DNA of 64,000 nt, taken from the sequence record NC_054931.1; one strand, written 5' to 3'. The notes under the pieces are model-generated. The model was not told the origin of the DNA. It did no database searches and saw only the letters and a program-made list of their open reading frames with translations. Positions within the stretch are counted from its first letter, which is position 1. Each line of letters begins with the position of its first letter. The stretch is from Escherichia phage T2. This document shows positions 4,935 to 30,178 of this stretch, in pieces. A program made the translations under genes and the position numbers.

Positions 4935-6500
4935 ATGACTATCAAAACTAAAGCTGAACTTTTGAACAAATGGAAGCCATTACTGGAAGGTGAAGGTTTA
5001 CCGGAAATTGCTAATAGCAAACAAGCGATTATCGCTAAAATCTTTGAAAACCAGGAAAAAGATTTCCAGACAGCTCCGGAATATAAAGACGAAAAAATTG
5101 CTCAGGCATTCGGTTCTTTCTTAACAGAAGCTGAAATCGGTGGTGACCACGGTTACAATGCTACCAACATCGCTGCAGGTCAGACTTCTGGCGCAGTAAC
5201 TCAGATTGGCCCAGCTGTTATGGGTATGGTACGTCGTGCTATTCCTAACCTGATTGCTTTCGATATTTGTGGTGTTCAGCCGATGAACAGCCCGACTGGC
5301 CAGGTATTCGCACTGCGCGCAGTATACGGTAAAGACCCGGTCGCTTCTGGTGCTAAAGAAGCATTCCACCCAATGTATGGTCCAGATGCAATGTTCTCTG
5401 GTCAGGGTGCTGCTAAGAAATTCGCTGCTTTGAAAGCAAGTGATACTCTTGAAGTCGGAACTATTTACACTCACTTCTTCCAGGAAACTGGTACTGTATA
5501 TCTGCAAGCTACAGAAGTTAAACAAATCGATGTCGGTGCTAGTGATGCAGCTAAATTAGATGCTGAAATTAAGAAACAAATGGAAGCTGGTGTACTGGTA
5601 GAAATCGCTGAAGGTATGGCTACTTCTATCGCTGAACTTCAGGAAGGTTTCAATGGTTCTACCGATAACCCATGGAATGAAATGGGCTTCCGTATCGATA
5701 AGCAAGTTATCGAAGCTAAATCTCGCCAGCTGAAAGCTGCTTACTCTATTGAATTAGCACAAGACCTCCGCGCTGTTCACGGTATGGATGCTGATGCTGA
5801 ACTGTCTGGTATTCTGGCTACAGAAATTATGCTGGAAATCAACCGTGAAGTTGTTGATTGGATTAACTACTCAGCTCAGGTTGGTAAATCTGGTATGACC
5901 CTGACTCCAGGTTCTAAAGCTGGTGTATTTGACTTCCAGGACCCAATCGATATTCGTGGTGCTCGCTGGGCGGGTGAATCCTTTAAAGCTCTGTTGTTCC
6001 AGATTGACAAAGAAGCAGTTGAAATTGCTCGTCAGACCGGTCGTGGTGAAGGTAACTTCATTATCGCTTCCCGTAACGTAGTTAACGTTCTGGCTTCAGT
6101 TGATACCGGCATTTCTTATGCTGCACAGGGTCTGGCTACCGGCTTCAACACTGATACTACCAAGTCAGTATTTGCTGGTGTTCTGGGTGGTAAATACCGC
6201 GTATATATCGACCAGTATGCTAAACAGGATTATTTCACTGTAGGTTATAAAGGTCCGAACGAAATGGATGCTGGTATTTACTATGCTCCATATGTAGCTC
6301 TGACTCCGCTGCGTGGTTCCGATCCGAAGAACTTCCAACCGGTAATGGGATTCAAAACTCGTTACGGTATCGGTATCAACCCATTTGCAGAATCCGCTGC
6401 TCAGGCTCCGGCTTCTCGCATCCAGAGCGGTATGCCTTCTATTCTGAATAGCCTTGGTAAAAACGCTTACTTTAGACGTGTATATGTTAAAGGTATCTAA
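4935..6500 (+). CDS. 23: major capsid protein
   Basis: 521 aa ORF; N-terminus MTIKTKAELLNKWKPLLEGEGLPEIANSKQ recognisable as T4 gp23. Confidence 0.98.
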   Translation: MTIKTKAELLNKWKPLLEGEGLPEIANSKQAIIAKIFENQEKDFQTAPEYKDEKIAQAFGSFLTEAEIGGDHGYNATNIAAGQTSGAVTQIGPAVMGMVRRAIPNLIAFDICGVQPMNSPTGQVFALRAVYGKDPVASGAKEAFHPMYGPDAMFSGQGAAKKFAALKASDTLEVGTIYTHFFQETGTVYLQATEVKQIDVGASDAAKLDAEIKKQMEAGVLVEIAEGMATSIAELQEGFNGSTDNPWNEMGFRIDKQVIEAKSRQLKAAYSIELAQDLRAVHGMDADAELSGILATEIMLEINREVVDWINYSAQVGKSGMTLTPGSKAGVFDFQDPIDIRGARWAGESFKALLFQIDKEAVEIARQTGRGEGNFIIASRNVVNVLASVDTGISYAAQGLATGFNTDTTKSVFAGVLGGKYRVYIDQYAKQDYFTVGYKGPNEMDAGIYYAPYVALTPLRGSDPKNFQPVMGFKTRYGIGINPFAESAAQAPASRIQSGMPSILNSLGKNAYFRRVYVKGI

Positions 6501-23806: not shown

Positions 23807-25903
23807 TTATCCTTGAACGAACTTGTAAGGCATGTTTGTAATATCTATGCAAGACGCAATAATTCCGAGAGATGATTCTACTTTCTGTTTAACATTTGAT
23901 GAAACAAATGATGCAAAGTCAACTCTGTCTTCTATTTCAATATCACCTGTCATTGCAACTACTTCGCCGGTTTCCATTAAACGGTCTCCGTCATAGATTA
24001 CCGATTCGGTGAGTTCTTCTGTGGTCATAACTTCAGCTTGAATGAGTTTTGTATTATTAGACGTGGTTCCGTCATTATTAGAAGCATCAGTTATTTTATT
24101 AACTTTGACCATCAATCCGCGCGGTAGAATAACTTCAGCTTCTGTTGCTATTCCGAGACTTCCTGGATATACAACATTAACTTTATGAGCTCCATCAATT
24201 GCCCATCCTATTTGAACTTTAACGTATTCAGGATTTTCTTTATACGCTCTTATTTCGTTTGGATTAATAGTTATTCCTTCTTCATTTTTATCAACTGTTA
24301 ATTCATTGCGAGCTTCTGGTTCTAAAAGACCAATACCAGCATGTGTAATTCCAAAACGTCCAAAAATGATAGGAGTTAAAGAAGTAGATACAAAATTTCT
24401 GAAATAGAACACTTTATTTTTAACTAGCGCTTCGTATATAGGAGCAGTCATACTTTGAGCACGATAAACTGTAATGCCTTCCGGTATGCGGTCACCATTT
24501 TCAAAAGCTGAATCTAAATTATTTATAGCAGATTCAATTTCTTTTTCACTCATTACATCATATCGTTCTGGATTGTAACGACCTAAAAGAAGATTATTAA
24601 TGTCTGTATATCCTGAACCACAATACTCTCTAATACCGCGCTTTTGTGATGGTGTATATTTAGAACCATCACAAGCAATAGTAATATCAATCATTGGACC
24701 AGCACCAATTCCAGAAAAACTATAAATCATTCGTTTGAGGAATTTAGTTTTTGCTGCATTCCAGGCATTTTTAGTTATTTCTCCCCAGACTTCATCTGGC
24801 TGCCCTTTACGAGTTTTATTATGTTTATCAAGCCAATTATCTTTATATTCTTCAAAGAATTGATTGACAGCTGCCGCGTATTTCTCTAAACATTTTATTG
24901 AAGTAGTTGGTTCATTTTTAATCGCGTTAAAAATTACATCTTTAATTTTTTCAGAAACTTCATCAACCTCACTTTTTGAAAAGAATTTATAGTCATAGTG
25001 AAGTTCATTCGCAGTTCCTTCGGCAATAATTTTTGCTGCCTTTGTTTTAGAAGCTAATGAATTAATTCCAATTTTCATTTCTTCTGCTTCGGGAATTAAA
25101 GGAGCGGTAGCAGGCTTATTGAAATTAGCTGCGGTAGATTCATACTTCTGGAATAATTCACTTTCAAATCTAGAAGATTCCAATGATTGACTTTGCGCAA
25201 TTGCTCTACGGGAAATTTTAACTTTAACGATTACAGCTTGGTCAGTACGTTTATCATTTTCTTGTGCAATAGATGCTGCAATTGCCTCGTTTTTAGTTAC
25301 TTGAGCTCCAGTATCTTTATTGATATAAACATCACCGACCTTCGATTCAACTTTAGTAAAGAGCTCGGTACTAATTTCCGGAACTCCTGGAATGTCTTCT
25401 AGTGATACATTTTTGCGATGTATAAGAATATATGCATACTTTTTATCATAATCCCAGAGTTCCTTAAGAAGGACGTATCTGCCACCTGAACGACTACGGA
25501 TAAGTCTATCAGCAATAACTTGAATTTGTCGAGCTTGACCAGCAGTTTTAGACTTAAGAATACGAAGCATACAAGCATCAATTTTATACTGACGCATTGT
25601 TTGCATTGCAACAGTAAAAACTGAATTGATATAATTAATTGGGCTTGGACCAAGACCTTTTAATTTAGCAATTGAACCTTTAGCAGTTAATGTAAAAGGA
25701 ACAATATGCATCATTTTATCGCCCATTTTTAAATCGCGATTAGTATCACCTCCAGATGTATAGGTACATAAACGAAAGCCTGGTTGTTCAATTGCATCAT
25801 CAACATGAACTGAAAAAATTTGTGGTATTTTCTTCTTTGGATTTAAGTTTGTAATCGGAAGAGTAGTATCTTCGTCAAATAATTCTGTAATGAGTTCCAT
25901 CAT
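23807..25903 (-). CDS. alt: Alt mono-ADP-ribosyltransferase (packaged internal head protein in T4)
   Basis: 698 aa ORF next to ligase gene 30; ART motifs YRAQ, FVSTSL, TEAEVILPRG; N-terminal MELITE consistent with prohead-protease processing. Confidence 0.8.
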   Translation of the reverse strand: MMELITELFDEDTTLPITNLNPKKKIPQIFSVHVDDAIEQPGFRLCTYTSGGDTNRDLKMGDKMMHIVPFTLTAKGSIAKLKGLGPSPINYINSVFTVAMQTMRQYKIDACMLRILKSKTAGQARQIQVIADRLIRSRSGGRYVLLKELWDYDKKYAYILIHRKNVSLEDIPGVPEISTELFTKVESKVGDVYINKDTGAQVTKNEAIAASIAQENDKRTDQAVIVKVKISRRAIAQSQSLESSRFESELFQKYESTAANFNKPATAPLIPEAEEMKIGINSLASKTKAAKIIAEGTANELHYDYKFFSKSEVDEVSEKIKDVIFNAIKNEPTTSIKCLEKYAAAVNQFFEEYKDNWLDKHNKTRKGQPDEVWGEITKNAWNAAKTKFLKRMIYSFSGIGAGPMIDITIACDGSKYTPSQKRGIREYCGSGYTDINNLLLGRYNPERYDVMSEKEIESAINNLDSAFENGDRIPEGITVYRAQSMTAPIYEALVKNKVFYFRNFVSTSLTPIIFGRFGITHAGIGLLEPEARNELTVDKNEEGITINPNEIRAYKENPEYVKVQIGWAIDGAHKVNVVYPGSLGIATEAEVILPRGLMVKVNKITDASNNDGTTSNNTKLIQAEVMTTEELTESVIYDGDRLMETGEVVAMTGDIEIEDRVDFASFVSSNVKQKVESSLGIIASCIDITNMPYKFVQG

Positions 25904-25952: not shown

Positions 25953-26141
25953 TTAATAATCTATAGGTAAGAGAGTACGATATATTTCAAACTTTGGACC
26001 TTTTTCATAAGCATCAAAAGTTTCTGTGAATTTATTATAAGCATATGCATCTATAAATTCAATCATGATTTGTGATACAGAAGTAGAAACATCTCCACCT
26101 TCTTTTTGAGCTACAACAATTGTTTCTAAGTAAGCTTTCAT
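25953..26141 (-). CDS. hypothetical small protein (alt.1 position)
   Basis: 62 aa ORF overlapping the gene 30 stop by 4 nt. Confidence 0.5.
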   Translation of the reverse strand: MKAYLETIVVAQKEGGDVSTSVSQIMIEFIDAYAYNKFTETFDAYEKGPKFEIYRTLLPIDY

Positions 26142-27601
26142 AGACCAGTTACCTCATGAAAATCGCCAAATACATCTTCGAACGTATTAGCTTTAGTTTT
26201 ATCTTCGCGTAAACGAATCGCAATCGGAAGAAATAATTTAACGTAATCAGTGCGGCCATCAGATTTTAACCAACCGTTGCATTCGCACTCTAGAATTTTT
26301 CCAATATAATAATTTTGGTTTTCCATAATGCGAGTACGGTCAAGTTCATGCGATTTTACACCGGCTTTATCTTTTAAGCCTGAACCAGCATTTACCTTAA
26401 TTTTTCCGCACTCTGACTCAAGAATAAATCCACCTGCTTTAGTAGGGTCTTTACGGTGAGGATAAATTCCTACAATTTTTAAATCAACATCAATTACTTC
26501 TTTAAATTTATAGAGATTTTTTGAACGAGCATTTTCCCATAATCCATCGATATTTTTGAGAATAATACCTTCAAGACCTTGGTCAATATACTTTTTATAA
26601 ATTACCTTAGCTTCATCTAGGTTATTTACTACCTGGTTTTCAATTAAAATTACTTTATCATATCCCGATGTCATTTGTTCTAGTTTAGAAAAACGTACAT
26701 CATACTTCAAACGAAATGCAGGAAGACCGTATATTTCTACCAACGGGACATAATCCCAGACCTGAAACTTCATGCATTGAGCTTCTTTTTCAGAAATGGT
26801 TCCCTTTAAAGATTTATTGGCGATGCCATTAGATGCAGTACGTGATTCAGCTACTTCTGTGAAGTCTTTAACTTTACTGTTTTCAGGATGAGCATCAAAA
26901 AGAAAATCTAGGCCTTCTGGCTCCTTTTTAACTTGCTCATGGTATACCAATTCGCCATCAATTAACACGCCTTCTGGATGAATCTGGCGGGCTTCAGCGG
27001 TCATTTTGATTAATTCTTCCTTAAGAAGATCTAATCCTAGATATTCATTACCGGCTCGTGATAAAAGACGAACATCATCTAATTCATCACCTCTGACTTC
27101 GGCAAAGCACCGAGCCCCATCAGCTTTTAACTGGGCAAAAGCTGGAAATTTGATATTCTTATTAATGCCTTTTTCATCATAAGAACTTGCAAGCATTTGA
27201 GGTTGTTCAGGAATTAAACCTGGCCAAACTTTGTTTGCAATAGATACTGAAGCACCACATTCAAGGTCTCGCATCATCACTCGACGCAAAACTTCAACAT
27301 CATCTTTTTTACCATCGGTGATATATCCAGTTAATTCCTCAATTGCTGCATTTCCAGTCAATTTCCGAGTAGCTAATGTGAATTCAATGAAGTCAAGCAT
27401 ATCGATAAGAGTCAACATTCCAAAACTCTGGGTAGCAATACCAGGTTTAGGCCATTTCTTGATATAATACTGCAACCCACGAGAATAAGTCAGACGATAT
27501 ACTCGTTTAAGCAATTCATTATCTTTATTCTTTTCAAGAATTGCTTGCTTCTGCTTAGTTGAACCAATAGATGCTATTTCGTTCAGAATTTTAAGAATCA
27601 T
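26138..27601 (-). CDS. 30: ATP-dependent DNA ligase
   Basis: 487 aa ORF; adenylation motif KADGAR; size as T4 DNA ligase. Confidence 0.97.
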   Translation of the reverse strand: MILKILNEIASIGSTKQKQAILEKNKDNELLKRVYRLTYSRGLQYYIKKWPKPGIATQSFGMLTLIDMLDFIEFTLATRKLTGNAAIEELTGYITDGKKDDVEVLRRVMMRDLECGASVSIANKVWPGLIPEQPQMLASSYDEKGINKNIKFPAFAQLKADGARCFAEVRGDELDDVRLLSRAGNEYLGLDLLKEELIKMTAEARQIHPEGVLIDGELVYHEQVKKEPEGLDFLFDAHPENSKVKDFTEVAESRTASNGIANKSLKGTISEKEAQCMKFQVWDYVPLVEIYGLPAFRLKYDVRFSKLEQMTSGYDKVILIENQVVNNLDEAKVIYKKYIDQGLEGIILKNIDGLWENARSKNLYKFKEVIDVDLKIVGIYPHRKDPTKAGGFILESECGKIKVNAGSGLKDKAGVKSHELDRTRIMENQNYYIGKILECECNGWLKSDGRTDYVKLFLPIAIRLREDKTKANTFEDVFGDFHEVTGL

Positions 27602-27867
27602 TATTCATCCTTCAGAGTTTGGTTTACAGCTCTATTATAAATCAATTCATCATTAAGCTCAGTCAAAGACCTATGATATGTGGTTCTAACTTTATTTCCT
27701 TGCATCCAGTGCTTGACGTAAATGAAACCTTGCTCTACACATTTTTTAAAAATTCGTTCGTCTTTTTGAGCTCGGAATTCTGGATTGCATCTAAAAAATT
27801 GATTTACGTGACCGTAATCACGTGTAGTATTACCTTCATTTTCATAAATAGTGTGAACAACAAACAT
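27601..27867 (-). CDS. hypothetical protein (30.1 position)
   Basis: 88 aa ORF contiguous with gene 30. Confidence 0.6.
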   Translation of the reverse strand: MFVVHTIYENEGNTTRDYGHVNQFFRCNPEFRAQKDERIFKKCVEQGFIYVKHWMQGNKVRTTYHRSLTELNDELIYNRAVNQTLKDE

Positions 27868-28709
27868 TAGAATGCTCCTTGGAAAATATTATCACCACTA
27901 CCACTAGTAAGTCTATTAAAATACCCTGCGTCGCCAGGCTTAAAACTCCATGTATGGAATGGATGCATCTGGTGTGAGTGTGTATAATATGGATTATAAG
28001 GATTAAATCCAGGAGTTCTCCAGGTAGTGTTCCAAGGAAAAGAATCGTTTTTAATCATCTTCTCGATTGTATCTTTTATGGCTTTTTCACTATCAAAACT
28101 TTCTTTATTTTCCTTCGGCGAAAAAAGCTTATTTTCTACATCATTCCATGTATAAACCCGCTGAGCAGTTTTTGGAATATTGTCACGCTCTCCTCGAGCC
28201 ATCCAATAAACAGGAACACGTAATATTTCACTCGCATGGTCGCAGTGGTGAGCGAGATCGTCAATATAACAAATTACGTTATATTTCTCTTTTGCCTTTT
28301 TGAACAGCTCTTCTTTTGAAGAATCATGACCACACATCAATACTTCTGAGAAGGCACCAGGAAAAAGAGCATTCAAATTAAATTGACGATTCAGCAGAGC
28401 GTCAATAGAATCGCCCAATGCTGTAACAGCTACAAAATTATAATCTTCCTTTAATTTGTTAATTACACACAGAGCATCTTTATATGGAGACAAGTAACGA
28501 ATAAAATCTGAACGATTGTATTTTTCAATTAACTTGACACCAAGTTCTTCATCACAGTTAAAGAGTTTACCAGGTGAAATAAATTTCTCATCTTGGATCA
28601 TTTTTAAAATATGTTCTAACGGAAGATTATATTTCTGAGCAAAATAAGGAAGGCCTGATTGCCAGCTTAAACATACTCCATCAATATCAGTTAAAATAGT
28701 AGGCTTCAT
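27867..28709 (-). CDS. HAD-superfamily-like hydrolase (30.2 position)
   Basis: 280 aa ORF; N-terminal ILTDIDGV resembles HAD motif I (DxDG). Confidence 0.65.
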   Translation of the reverse strand: MKPTILTDIDGVCLSWQSGLPYFAQKYNLPLEHILKMIQDEKFISPGKLFNCDEELGVKLIEKYNRSDFIRYLSPYKDALCVINKLKEDYNFVAVTALGDSIDALLNRQFNLNALFPGAFSEVLMCGHDSSKEELFKKAKEKYNVICYIDDLAHHCDHASEILRVPVYWMARGERDNIPKTAQRVYTWNDVENKLFSPKENKESFDSEKAIKDTIEKMIKNDSFPWNTTWRTPGFNPYNPYYTHSHQMHPFHTWSFKPGDAGYFNRLTSGSGDNIFQGAF

Positions 28710-29164
28710 AGAGAGTCTCTTAATAGGTTTAACACATCAATAAATTCAGCTTCGGTTAGTATTGTATCATCTTTTGTTAGACCACTAGCCATGCTGTGCT
28801 TCAAAACTTTTCCTTTCGAGGCTAGTAATGCATCACGAAAGCCCTTGTTTTGAATCGCTGCTTCAAAATATGCATTTGTATATAATTCTTTCCACGCTGG
28901 GGAGTATCTTGAAAACGGAACTCCGAGCCAGAAGAGGGTCCCACGGTCCTGAGCTCTAGCATAAGACCTTCCAGCTTGTTGGGCGGCAAGCCCGGATAAC
29001 CCAAATATACGACGTTGTTGTTCAACATTTTTCACCTTGCATCCTTGGAGGAATCCTTCAAGACCTCCGAATTGAATACCATCCATGACGAAAGGCCATT
29101 GGGCGAAATTACTTAATGCGCATGATGGCCATCTAAAATTGCTTCTAATCTCTAACTCAGACAT
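28706..29164 (-). CDS. NADAR/YbiA-like domain protein (30.3 position)
   Basis: 152 aa ORF; SNFAQWPFVMDG, EGFLQGCK and later blocks align with conserved YbiA/NADAR blocks as I recall them. Confidence 0.7.
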   Translation of the reverse strand: MSELEIRSNFRWPSCALSNFAQWPFVMDGIQFGGLEGFLQGCKVKNVEQQRRIFGLSGLAAQQAGRSYARAQDRGTLFWLGVPFSRYSPAWKELYTNAYFEAAIQNKGFRDALLASKGKVLKHSMASGLTKDDTILTEAEFIDVLNLLRDSL

Positions 29165-29375
29165 CTTTAATACTTTATAATTTCAACATCCGCCCAATGA
29201 CCATAACTTGGCAGACGGTCTTCAATAGATAATCCACCATCATATTTAAGCATTTTAATTGTCATAATATGGCTCTAAATGGTCTTCTGTGAGCGTAGAA
29301 ACGTCAGTCACACGATAAGTAACTTCAACCATTTCCGTACCTAATAATTTCTGAATTAATTTCTTAAACATATTA

Positions 29376-29663
29376 TCAGAACCTCATCTGAAAACCGTGT
29401 GATTTAACATTACCGCCGCCAATATCAGAAATATTAATTTCACGCGCAATTGAAGGGTCAATGTCAATTTCGCGATTGAGTTTAGTGATAGCTAAAGTAT
29501 CACGCCCATTTACTGTACGGAATTCTAAAGGGCAGACTACATTAACGTAATTTTTAATCGATTCACTGGTAGGTTGCAAATGAGCAGGAAGGTCTTTAGG
29601 CGCCTTAGAGAAAACCACTTCACAAAAATTTTTGCGGGTATCAAAATAAGTAGTCATAAACAT
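29376..29663 (-). CDS. hypothetical protein
   Basis: Track ORF 29376..29687; start moved to the ATG preceded by GAGGAAA. Confidence 0.5.
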   Translation of the reverse strand: MFMTTYFDTRKNFCEVVFSKAPKDLPAHLQPTSESIKNYVNVVCPLEFRTVNGRDTLAITKLNREIDIDPSIAREINISDIGGGNVKSHGFQMRF

Positions 29664-29702
29664 AACATTTTCCTCAATAGGGGCCAAAGCCCCTCATTTA
29701 TT

Positions 29703-30068
29703 TTAAATATCAAATTCGTTAAGAACTACATCAAAGATTGCTTCAAGATGCTCAGGTTTAGCTCTGTTACTCAGAATATGACGAATCCAAGTTTTAACCA
29801 AAAGCTTGCGATTAGCACCATTCCAGCAAGGATGAGTCCCTAAATCGCGTTGACGAAAATCATCATCCAGAGCGATTTTAAAGTTGGAACCTTCCATTGT
29901 GATTGAAACCGTGATGCCATTTTCAAATCGCATATAAACATAGTTAGGAGTCATATACTGTTCAATTTCGCATACTGATCCATTTTGATGTTTCCAAAGG
30001 CAGATAGTATCAATAGAACCTGCAATACCATTAGAAACATATTTACGTTCAAAGTTGATGTAGTTCAT
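29703..30068 (-). CDS. hypothetical protein
   Basis: Track ORF 29703..30128; start moved to MNYINF, preceded by AAAGGAGAA RBS and an early promoter. Confidence 0.55.
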   Translation of the reverse strand: MNYINFERKYVSNGIAGSIDTICLWKHQNGSVCEIEQYMTPNYVYMRFENGITVSITMEGSNFKIALDDDFRQRDLGTHPCWNGANRKLLVKTWIRHILSNRAKPEHLEAIFDVVLNEFDI

Positions 30069-30074
30069 TTTTAT

Positions 30075-30130
30075 TCTCCTTTGTTTGTGTAAGATAATAC
30101 TATCACAAAGGAACCATACTGTAAACAACT
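30075..30130 (-). promoter_or_regulatory. early promoter upstream of ORF 29703..30068
   Basis: GTTTACA, 17 nt, TAGTAT/TATTAT, directly after a hairpin terminator. Confidence 0.45.
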
Positions 30131-30149: not shown

Positions 30150-30178
30150 TAAAAAAGGACTCCCGAAGGAGTCCTCAA
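30150..30178 (-). terminator. hairpin terminator downstream of ORF 30180..30356
   Basis: GGACTCC-TTCG-GGAGTCC followed by a T-run on the minus strand. Confidence 0.55.

What the first reader, a model, noticed from the sequence alone, without database searches (positions are those of the whole stretch)
27867..29164. HAD-like hydrolase and NADAR/YbiA-like protein encoded back to back downstream of DNA ligase
ORF 27867..28709 begins with a HAD motif I-like DIDGV; ORF 28706..29164 has YbiA/NADAR-like blocks (SNFAQWPFVMDG, EGFLQGCK). NADAR enzymes reverse guanine ADP-ribosylation by DarT-type toxins and process ADP-ribose conjugates, so this pair, overlapping by 4 nt and likely co-translated, may be an anti-defence or NAD/ADP-ribose salvage module.
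Basis: partly seen in the sequence, partly recalled or inferred. Interest (0 to 1): 0.45.

Follow-up and report, generated by a model that had tools for sequence, protein, structure and literature searches.

The report
T2 AdfN NADAR plus HAD phosphatase
These are phage T2 genes 30.3 and 30.2: the first is AdfN, an already published enzyme that strips toxic ADP-ribose off phage DNA to defeat the bacterial DarTG1 defence, and the second is an uncharacterised HAD-family phosphatase that published transposon data show is not needed for that job.

Summary
The window is phage T2 (100% match). Both ORFs are real but lie on the minus strand, so they sit upstream of the ligase gene, in the order 30.3, 30.2, 30.1, 30. 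ORF 28706..29164 is gp30.3 (Pfam PF08010, E 2.6e-70). Its model has a NADAR fold: the three best PDB matches are the three NADAR structures. It carries the catalytic E36 and K43 and the phage-type H123. It is 150/152 identical to T4 AdfN, which was published in 2025 as the DNA ADP-ribosylglycohydrolase that T4 and T2 need to plaque on DarTG1 hosts. ORF 27867..28709 is gp30.2, a true HAD-fold protein with all four catalytic motifs invariant, a C1 cap and a disordered C-terminal tail. Its nearest relatives are 5'(3')-deoxyribonucleotidases (NT5C). Its substrate is unknown. The 'co-working pair' idea is not supported. T4 transposon sequencing shows 30.2 insertions are neutral on DarTG1 (log2FC -0.12), while 30.3 insertions are lost (-7.25). 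Nine T4-like genomes carry the two genes 50-60 kb apart. The 4-nt overlap is typical of this gene string. Verdict: already known (AdfN), next to an ordinary unassigned phosphatase.

The parts
28706..29164 (-). Gene 30.3 = adfN. It encodes a 152-aa NADAR-family DNA ADP-ribosylglycohydrolase (anti-DarT factor NADAR).
   Evidence: ORF. Pfam PF08010 at E 2.6e-70. AF2 model pLDDT 93.7. The top 3 PDB fold hits are YbiA 2b3w, PnNADAR 8bau and GlNADAR 8bat. 150/152 identical to T4 gp30.3. Function published for T4 and T2.
29057..29059 (-). Codon GAA for E36 of AdfN, a catalytic glutamate.
   Evidence: Read. Invariant in 37 homologues. The E36A mutant is impaired in vivo and was the inactive control in vitro (PMC11825919).
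29036..29038 (-). Codon AAG for K43 of AdfN, a catalytic lysine.
   Evidence: Read. Conserved in at least 90% of homologues. The K43A mutant is impaired.
28796..28798 (-). Codon CAC for H123 of AdfN. This histidine in the last strand marks the phage gp30.3 NADAR subfamily; the YbiA family has Glu and the DarT-linked family has Asp at this position.
   Evidence: Invariant. It lies in strand E120-123 of the model. The subfamily definition is in PMC11125620.
28706..28709 (-). ATGA junction where the stop of 30.3 overlaps the start of 30.2.
   Evidence: The same 4-nt overlap occurs in T4.
27867..28709 (-). Gene 30.2. It encodes a 280-aa HAD-superfamily phosphatase-like protein of unknown substrate.
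   Evidence: ORF. PHROG 420 at E 2.5e-89. 93% identical to T4 gp30.2.
28110..28709 (-). HAD catalytic core plus C1 cap (about residues 1-200).
28674..28688 (-). HAD motif I, D8-I-D10-G-V. D8 is the nucleophile and D10 the general acid/base.
   Evidence: Codons read. D8, D10 and G11 are invariant in 34 homologues. D8 and D10 are also invariant in 48 more distant relatives.
28422..28424 (-). Codon for T96, HAD motif II, at the end of strand 91-96.
28314..28316 (-). Codon for K132, HAD motif III.
   Evidence: Invariant.
28257..28262 (-). Codons for D150 and D151, HAD motif IV, at the end of strand 145-150.
   Evidence: Invariant. D151 is kept in at least 90% of distant relatives.
27870..28109 (-). 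Disordered, fast-evolving C-terminal tail of gp30.2 (about residues 201-280), rich in aromatic residues, Pro and Asn.
   Evidence: pLDDT is about 40-65 over most of the tail; a short predicted helix at 207-220 scores about 87. The tail is absent from many homologues of about 200 aa. T2 and T4 differ here by indels, while the catalytic part differs at only 2 positions.
27601..27867 (-). Context: gene 30.1 (DUF3045), next gene in the string, overlapping 30.2 by 1 nt.
26138..27601 (-). Context: gene 30, ATP-dependent DNA ligase, last gene of the 30.3-30.2-30.1-30 string.

Best explanation
These are two adjacent but functionally separable early accessory genes of phage T2. Gene 30.3 is adfN. Its product is a stand-alone NADAR enzyme that hydrolyses the N-glycosidic bond between ADP-ribose and guanine in phage DNA modified by the host DarT1 toxin, so replication can proceed in DarTG1 hosts. 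This has been shown experimentally by others for T4 and T2. Gene 30.2 encodes a Mg2+-dependent phosphomonoesterase of the HAD superfamily. It would act through an Asp8 phospho-enzyme intermediate with Asp10 as acid/base, and it has a helical C1 cap that points to a small-molecule substrate. Its closest relatives are 5'(3')-deoxyribonucleotidases (NT5C), so the most likely substrate is a nucleoside monophosphate or a similar sugar phosphate. That substrate assignment is inferred and was not tested. The two genes are co-transcribed and probably translationally coupled simply because they belong to the tightly packed 30.x gene string. gp30.2 is not required for AdfN's anti-DarTG1 function.
For: Identity: the region is 100% identical to phage T2 AP018813.

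AdfN: PF08010 at E 2.6e-70. NADAR fold, with the top 3 PDB hits all NADARs. A profile hit to YbiA over the SNFA...EGF block at E 0.004. E36 and H123 invariant, K43 nearly so. 150/152 identical to T4 AdfN. Published results: deletion of adfN in T4 and in T2 abolishes plaquing on DarTG1; purified AdfN removes ADP-ribose from DarT1-modified DNA; E36A and K43A are impaired. An independent T4 Tn-seq gives 30.3 log2FC -7.25, adjusted p 0, on DarTG1.

Separability: 30.2 is neutral on DarTG1 (log2FC -0.12, 71 TA sites) and in M9 (-0.10), and is non-essential (72/72 TA sites hit). Nine genomes have the two genes 50-60 kb apart. 42 of 79 HAD loci and 61 of 80 NADAR loci lack the partner within 6 kb.
Against: Some observations favour a link. 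Where the genes are linked (37 of 79 HAD loci), the NADAR gene is always immediately upstream on the same strand. The two genes have almost the same distribution across about 1,450 phage records. One genome (L029) has a divergent gp30.2-like HAD near a NADAR in the reverse order. AdfN of T4 needs an unidentified T-even factor for full activity outside T-even infection.

Confidence: 0.8

Rival explanations
1. The pair is a two-enzyme module. AdfN releases ADP-ribose from DNA, and gp30.2 dephosphorylates a downstream product (for example AMP or ribose-5-phosphate after Nudix cleavage, or a phosphorylated ADP-ribose derivative). Alternatively gp30.2 is the unknown T-even factor that potentiates AdfN.
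For: The genes share a 4-nt ATGA overlap. The order NADAR then HAD is conserved in 37 of 79 loci, 19 of them overlapping by the stop-to-stop ORF measure. Their phyletic distributions are nearly identical. L029 shows a second arrangement of the two genes. There is a published precedent for ADP-ribosylglycohydrolases coupled to phosphatases, including a HAD 5'-nucleotidase (PMC9503650). AdfN-T4 is fully active only in T-even infections.
Against: In T4 Tn-seq, 71 TA sites in 30.2 show no depletion on DarTG1 (log2FC -0.12, adjusted p 1.0), while 30.3 insertions are lost. The genes are unlinked in 9 T4-like genomes. Most NADAR loci outside close T4 relatives have no HAD nearby. Every junction in the 30.x string overlaps in the same way. 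Conserved synteny is the rule in T4-like genomes, so adjacency carries little weight.
Confidence: 0.1
2. gp30.2 is a DNA-end 3'-phosphatase that prepares nicks for the ligase gp30 encoded two genes further on, as the HAD phosphatase domain of polynucleotide kinase does.
For: gp30.2 lies next to 30.1 and the ligase gene in T2 and T4. One distant relative gives a weak hit to Pfam HAD_PNKP (E 0.0032). From general knowledge, the T4 PseT phosphatase domain is a HAD fold.
Against: gp30.2 has a helical C1 cap of about 80 residues between motifs I and II, and capped HADs typically act on small molecules (general knowledge of the superfamily). Sequence and fold point to NT5C rather than PNKP. T4-type phages already have PseT (own knowledge; not checked in this window).
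Confidence: 0.05
3. gp30.2 is a catalytically dead HAD-like scaffold whose function lies in its disordered C-terminal tail.
For: The tail of about 80 residues is disordered, rich in aromatic residues and Pro, and evolves fast. No phenotype was seen in any Tn-seq condition examined.
Against: All catalytic residues (D8, D10, K132, D150, D151) are invariant and T96 is nearly so, and most are kept in relatives at 22-34% identity. Many homologues lack the tail altogether.
Confidence: 0.03

Closest known systems
AdfN (T4 gp30.3), anti-DarT factor NADAR; Johannesman et al. 2025, Nat Commun (PMC11825919)
   Same: Same gene. The T2 protein is 150/152 identical and has E36, K43 and H123. The paper used T2 as the donor of the resistance locus and made a T2 deletion.
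   Different: Nothing of substance. There are two conservative substitutions (L114Q and M125I relative to T4).
DarG1 / Geobacter lovleyi NADAR (8bat), Phytophthora NADAR (8bau) and E. coli YbiA (2b3w)
   Same: Same fold (these are the top 3 Foldseek hits), and the same SNF...EGF...K catalytic block.
   Different: gp30.3 lacks the N-terminal extension of DarG1. It has His where the YbiA family has Glu and the DarT-linked family has Asp. It is not encoded next to a DarT toxin. It does not reach Pfam PF08719 at E <= 0.1. According to the paper, it cannot replace DarG1 in uninfected cells.
5'(3')-deoxyribonucleotidases, NT5C family (human and mouse cdN/mdN: 2jao, 2i7d, 4yih, 1q92; S. epidermidis 3bwv)
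ARG-phosphatase neighbourhoods (ADP-ribosylglycohydrolase coupled to a HAD 5'-nucleotidase and other phosphatases) described by Iyer et al. 2022 (PMC9503650)
   Same: An ADP-ribose-removing hydrolase encoded next to a HAD-type phosphatase.
   Different: Those are bacterial systems built on the ARG fold, with regulators and chaperones. Here the hydrolase is a NADAR, the setting is a phage early region, and genetic data argue that the phosphatase is dispensable for the known function.

Membership tests
NADAR superfamily, phage gp30.3/AdfN subfamily | Match to the family profile (Pfam PF08010 Phage_30_3) above its gathering score | tested here: met
   235.1 bits against a cutoff of 36, E 2.6e-70, covering 138/138 profile positions.
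NADAR superfamily, phage gp30.3/AdfN subfamily | YbiA/NADAR alpha+beta fold | tested here: met
   The AF2 model has pLDDT 93.7. The only strong Foldseek PDB hits are YbiA 2b3w (E 2.2e-5), PnNADAR 8bau and GlNADAR 8bat.
NADAR superfamily, phage gp30.3/AdfN subfamily | Catalytic Glu and Lys in the EGFxQxxK block | tested here: met
   E36 and K43 are present. E36 is invariant and K43 is kept in at least 90% of 37 homologues. These are the residues mutated in PMC11825919.
NADAR superfamily, phage gp30.3/AdfN subfamily | Histidine in the last strand instead of the Glu (YbiA) or Asp (DarT-linked) of other NADARs | tested here: met
   H123 is invariant and lies in strand 120-123. The definition is in PMC11125620.
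NADAR superfamily, phage gp30.3/AdfN subfamily | Direct hit to the general NADAR models (Pfam PF08719/DUF1768, TIGR02464) | tested here: not met
   There is no PF08719 hit at E <= 0.1. TIGR02464 reaches only E 0.16, 12 bits against a cutoff of 73.7. The subfamily has its own Pfam model, so this does not exclude superfamily membership.
NADAR superfamily, phage gp30.3/AdfN subfamily | Guanine-specific DNA ADP-ribosylglycohydrolase activity and an anti-DarTG1 phenotype | not testable with these tools
   Published for the 99%-identical T4 protein in vitro and for T4 and T2 deletions in vivo. Supported independently by T4 Tn-seq.
HAD (haloacid dehalogenase-like) phosphatase superfamily | Rossmann-like HAD core fold | tested here: met
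HAD (haloacid dehalogenase-like) phosphatase superfamily | Motif I DxD at the end of strand 1 | tested here: met
   D8 and D10 follow strand 4-7. They are invariant in 34 close and 48 distant relatives.
HAD (haloacid dehalogenase-like) phosphatase superfamily | Motif II (Thr/Ser), motif III (Lys) and motif IV (acidic pair) | tested here: met
   T96 is at the end of strand 91-96, K132 precedes helix 133-142, and D150-D151 are at the end of strand 145-150.
HAD (haloacid dehalogenase-like) phosphatase superfamily | Significant hit of the protein itself to a curated HAD model (PF00702, PF13419) | tested here: not met
   The T2 protein gives no Pfam family at E <= 0.1 and no NCBIfam family. Hits among homologues are all below the gathering scores: 10 of 34 to PF00702, best E 3.5e-4.
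HAD (haloacid dehalogenase-like) phosphatase superfamily | Mg2+-dependent phosphoryl-transfer activity | not testable with these tools
   No biochemical data were found (one search returned nothing relevant).
NT5C 5'(3')-deoxyribonucleotidase family | Match to Pfam PF06941 | tested here: inconclusive
   The T2 protein gives no hit. 5 of 34 close homologues hit it (best E 1.2e-4), as do 21 of 48 distant relatives (best E 6.1e-10).
NT5C 5'(3')-deoxyribonucleotidase family | Closest structural neighbours are NT5C enzymes | tested here: inconclusive
NT5C 5'(3')-deoxyribonucleotidase family | Deoxyribonucleoside monophosphate phosphatase activity | not testable with these tools
   No assay data exist.
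Two-gene AdfN + cofactor counter-defence module | Both genes required for resistance to DarTG1 | tested here: not met
Two-gene AdfN + cofactor counter-defence module | Conserved linkage across genomes that carry both genes | tested here: not met
   The genes are linked in 37 of 79 HAD loci but lie 50-60 kb apart in 9 genomes.

The most novel reading that the evidence does not exclude
gp30.2 is a nucleotide or sugar-phosphate phosphatase that works downstream of ADP-ribose removal. It might clear an ADP-ribose-derived phosphate or feed nucleoside salvage, or it might help AdfN work only in T-even infections. If so, the frequent NADAR-then-HAD arrangement in T4-like phages would be a real, if non-essential, functional coupling that laboratory Tn-seq conditions do not reveal.
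Probability: 0.1. Interest if true: 0.5.

Novelty: already known. Interest (0 to 1): 0.15.

Why it matters
The interesting half of the finding has been solved: a phage NADAR that reverses DarT-type guanine ADP-ribosylation was published as AdfN, using this very phage. What remains is modest. gp30.2 is one of the roughly 100 unassigned T4-type genes. It can now be described with confidence as an active-looking, NT5C-like HAD phosphatase found in about 1,400 phage records. It can also be set aside as the 'missing T-even factor' that AdfN needs. Most GenBank records still call both genes 'hypothetical protein', so the annotations could be updated.

Tried and rejected
- Direct Pfam, NCBIfam and PADLOC scans of gp30.2 gave nothing.
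- Single-sequence searches of PDB gave only chance hits for both proteins.
- gp30.3 has no PADLOC hit, so it does not match any defence-system model, DarG included.
- A literature search for gp30.2 or 'gene 30.2' returned only irrelevant papers.
- The promoter scan found no more sigma-70-like sites than in shuffled sequence (21 against 19.7 +/- 4.3), so it says nothing about transcription units. It showed only a terminator-like hairpin upstream of 30.7.
- Long or fused relatives of gp30.2 (P0263, P0330, P0216, P0257 and others) were scanned for informative partner domains. None was found.
- A relaxed HMM search for a second, cryptic HAD next to the relocated NADAR genes found only one case, L029.
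- I considered gp30.2 as the unknown T-even factor needed by AdfN and rejected it on the Tn-seq data.
- I considered T4 gene 30.4 as that factor, because it is mildly depleted on DarTG1. I judged this most likely a polar effect, because T2 has only a split 30.4 yet relies on AdfN.

Full report
**What is there.** The 1.9 kb around the finding is 100% identical to Escherichia phage T2 (AP018813) and 94-95% identical to many Tequatrovirus genomes. All genes in this part of the window are on the minus strand. In the direction of transcription the order is:
- 30.7 (29703..30128);
- a 30.6-like ORF (29376..29687);
- two short ORFs;
- 30.3 (28706..29164);
- 30.2 (27867..28709);
- 30.1 (27601..27867, DUF3045);
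- gene 30, DNA ligase (26138..27601);
- alt.1;
- Alt ADP-ribosyltransferase (23807..25903).

So the pair lies upstream of the ligase gene, not downstream. However, 30.2/30.1 and 30.1/30 also overlap, by 1 nt each. The overlap is therefore a property of the whole gene string and not of this pair. No terminator-like site lies on the minus strand between a hairpin at 30176-30155 and the end of the ligase gene. Promoter-like matches are no more frequent than in shuffled sequence.

**Gene 30.3 is AdfN.**
- The 152-aa product matches Pfam PF08010 (Phage_30_3) end to end at E 2.6e-70.
- It does not reach the general NADAR model PF08719 at E <= 0.1, and it reaches TIGR02464 only at E 0.16.
- A profile of 37 homologues finds E. 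coli YbiA in the PDB (E 0.004), aligned over the SNFA...EGF...K block.
- An AlphaFold model (pLDDT 93.7) has as its three best PDB matches exactly the three solved NADARs: YbiA 2b3w, Phytophthora NADAR 8bau and Geobacter NADAR 8bat. Nothing else scores better than E of about 2.
- E36 and H123 are invariant and K43 is nearly invariant across homologues down to 35% identity.
- H123 is the histidine that defines the phage gp30.3 subfamily, where YbiA has Glu and DarT-linked NADARs have Asp (PMC11125620).

The function is published. Johannesman et al. (PMC11825919) mapped DarTG1 resistance by T2 x RB69 recombination to the 3' part of 30.3 and renamed the gene adfN. Their main results:
- Deleting adfN from T4 or from T2 abolishes plaquing on DarTG1 cells.
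- Ectopic adfN rescues RB69.
- Purified protein removes ADP-ribose from DarT1-modified DNA.
- E36A and K43A mutants are impaired.

The T2 protein in this window is 150/152 identical to the T4 protein. An independent T4 transposon-sequencing study (bioRxiv 10.1101/2025.11.20.689424) found that 30.3 insertions are lost on DarTG1 (log2FC -7.25, adjusted p 0; Data S6).

**Gene 30.2 is a real HAD-fold protein of unknown substrate.** The 280-aa product hits no Pfam or NCBIfam model, and by sequence alone it has no relative among solved structures. It belongs to PHROG 420, of unknown function. Evidence for the HAD fold:
- Among 34 homologues (34-94% identity) the invariant residues include D8, D10 and G11 (motif I), K132 (motif III) and D150-D151 (motif IV). 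T96 (motif II) is nearly invariant.
- The AlphaFold model is confident over residues 1-190 (pLDDT above 90). It places each motif at the end of the expected strand, with about 80 helical residues inserted after motif I, that is, a C1 cap.
- Foldseek gives 112 PDB hits at E <= 1e-3, and the 50 best listed are HAD-fold entries.

Within the superfamily, four weak but concordant lines point to the 5'(3')-deoxyribonucleotidase (NT5C) family:
- The best PDB profile hit is mouse cdN 2jao, with DxDGVLxxWxSGL aligned to NMDGVLADFESGL.
- The lowest-rmsd Foldseek hits are cdN and mdN.
- An exhaustive profile search found 1,480 cluster representatives at E <= 1e-3. Of 48 distant ones, 21 match Pfam NT5C, against 8 for Hydrolase and 7 for HAD_2. 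These relatives still keep D8, D10, R108 and K132.

Residues from about 200 to 280 are predicted to be disordered. This tail is missing from many homologues. It is where T2 and T4 differ, by indels, while the catalytic part differs at only two positions. A few GenBank records already label the gene 'HAD-like protein' or '5' nucleotidase deoxy pyrimidine cytosolic type protein'.

**Are the two genes a functional pair?** Points in favour:
- The genes overlap.
- In IMG/VR, 37 of 79 gp30.2-anchored loci have a NADAR gene upstream on the same strand. By the stop-to-stop ORF measure, 19 of these overlap it and the rest lie within about 1.2 kb.
- tblastn against 50,697 phage records finds the two genes in almost the same sets: 1,438 and 1,509 records, with near-identical counts per host genus.
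- One contig (L029) has a divergent gp30.2-like HAD two small genes upstream of a NADAR, the reverse order.
- ADP-ribosylglycohydrolase plus HAD 5'-nucleotidase neighbourhoods have been described in bacteria (PMC9503650).
- AdfN-T4 needs an unidentified T-even factor for full activity.

Points against:
- Nine T4-like genomes hold both genes 50-60 kb apart (contig ranges).
- 42 of 79 HAD loci lack a NADAR within 6 kb, and 36 of those 42 have at least 5 kb of upstream flank.
- 61 of 80 NADAR loci lack the HAD.
- Decisively, T4 Tn-seq on a DarTG1 host leaves 30.2 insertions unchanged. Across 71 TA sites the mean count goes from 271.5 to 249.8 (log2FC -0.12, adjusted p 1.0). In the same sheet 30.3 insertions vanish.
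- 30.2 is also neutral in M9 against LB and is non-essential, with 72 of 72 TA sites hit.

I conclude that gp30.2 is not needed for AdfN's known function and is not the missing factor. A looser metabolic link cannot be excluded, and I give it about 10%.

**Mechanism.**
- *Shown by others:* DarT1 ADP-ribosylates guanine in phage DNA and blocks replication. AdfN hydrolyses the ribose-guanine bond and releases ADP-ribose.
- *Inferred here for gp30.2:* Asp8 attacks a phosphomonoester to form an aspartyl-phosphate. Asp10 protonates the leaving group. K132, T96 and D150/D151 with Mg2+ stabilise the transition state. The C1 cap selects a small substrate, most plausibly a nucleoside monophosphate.

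**Verdict.** Novelty: already known. Interest: low.

Noticed in passing
window 29167..29371 (-), compared with L161 4759..5159: T2 lacks T4 gene 30.5 (about 185 bp are missing). Its counterpart of T4 30.4 is split into two short ORFs of 38 aa (29255..29371) and 32 aa (29167..29265). In T4 Tn-seq, 30.4 is mildly depleted on DarTG1 (log2FC -1.79, adjusted p 0.014). This is probably a polar effect on 30.3, because T2 without an intact 30.4 still depends on AdfN for resistance.
   Followed up: partly
window 27870..28109 (-): The C-terminal tail of gp30.2 (about 80 residues) is predicted to be disordered and is rich in Trp, Tyr, Phe, His, Pro and Asn. It varies by indels between T2 and T4 and is absent from many homologues. 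Several distant homologues share a short motif near the end (GxEYLNRQPT-like), which might be a docking peptide.
   Followed up: partly
window 28822..29028 (-): A 68-aa out-of-frame ORF inside 30.3 lies where T4's annotated 30.3' does ('internal translation in a different reading frame'). I did not test whether it is expressed or conserved as a coding sequence.
   Followed up: no
window 23807..25903 (-): Alt, the phage's own packaged ADP-ribosyltransferase (PF03496, E 1.7e-37), lies about 3 kb further along the same strand as the ADP-ribose-removing AdfN. [quoted passage not shown]
   Followed up: no
L029 4736..5308 and 5989..6456: In a 166-kb viral contig, a divergent gp30.2-like HAD (190 aa, motif I DIDGC, motif IV 'ED' instead of 'DD') lies two small genes upstream of a NADAR. 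This is the reverse of the T2 order.
   Followed up: partly
window 30155..30176 (-): A strong terminator-like hairpin (9-bp stem, 5 G-C pairs, T-run) lies just upstream of gene 30.7. No other terminator-like site occurs on the minus strand down to the end of the ligase gene, which is consistent with one transcription unit.
   Followed up: no
window 28706..29164; PHROG 652: The PHROG profile that gp30.3 matches is 296 positions long, and gp30.3 aligns only to positions 126-272. Some members of that family must therefore carry an N-terminal extension of about 125 residues. Separately, one paper lists its 'T4 NADAR (gp30.3)' construct as residues 1-208, although the gene encodes 152 aa.
   Followed up: no
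GenBank records under window 27500..29400: Annotation is inconsistent. Most records call both genes 'hypothetical protein'. AP018813 (T2) carries odd names under this stretch ('secreted LysM/SCP-PR1 domain protein', 'high-light inducible protein'). One Acinetobacter phage record names the gp30.2 homologue 'DNA ligase'.
   Followed up: no
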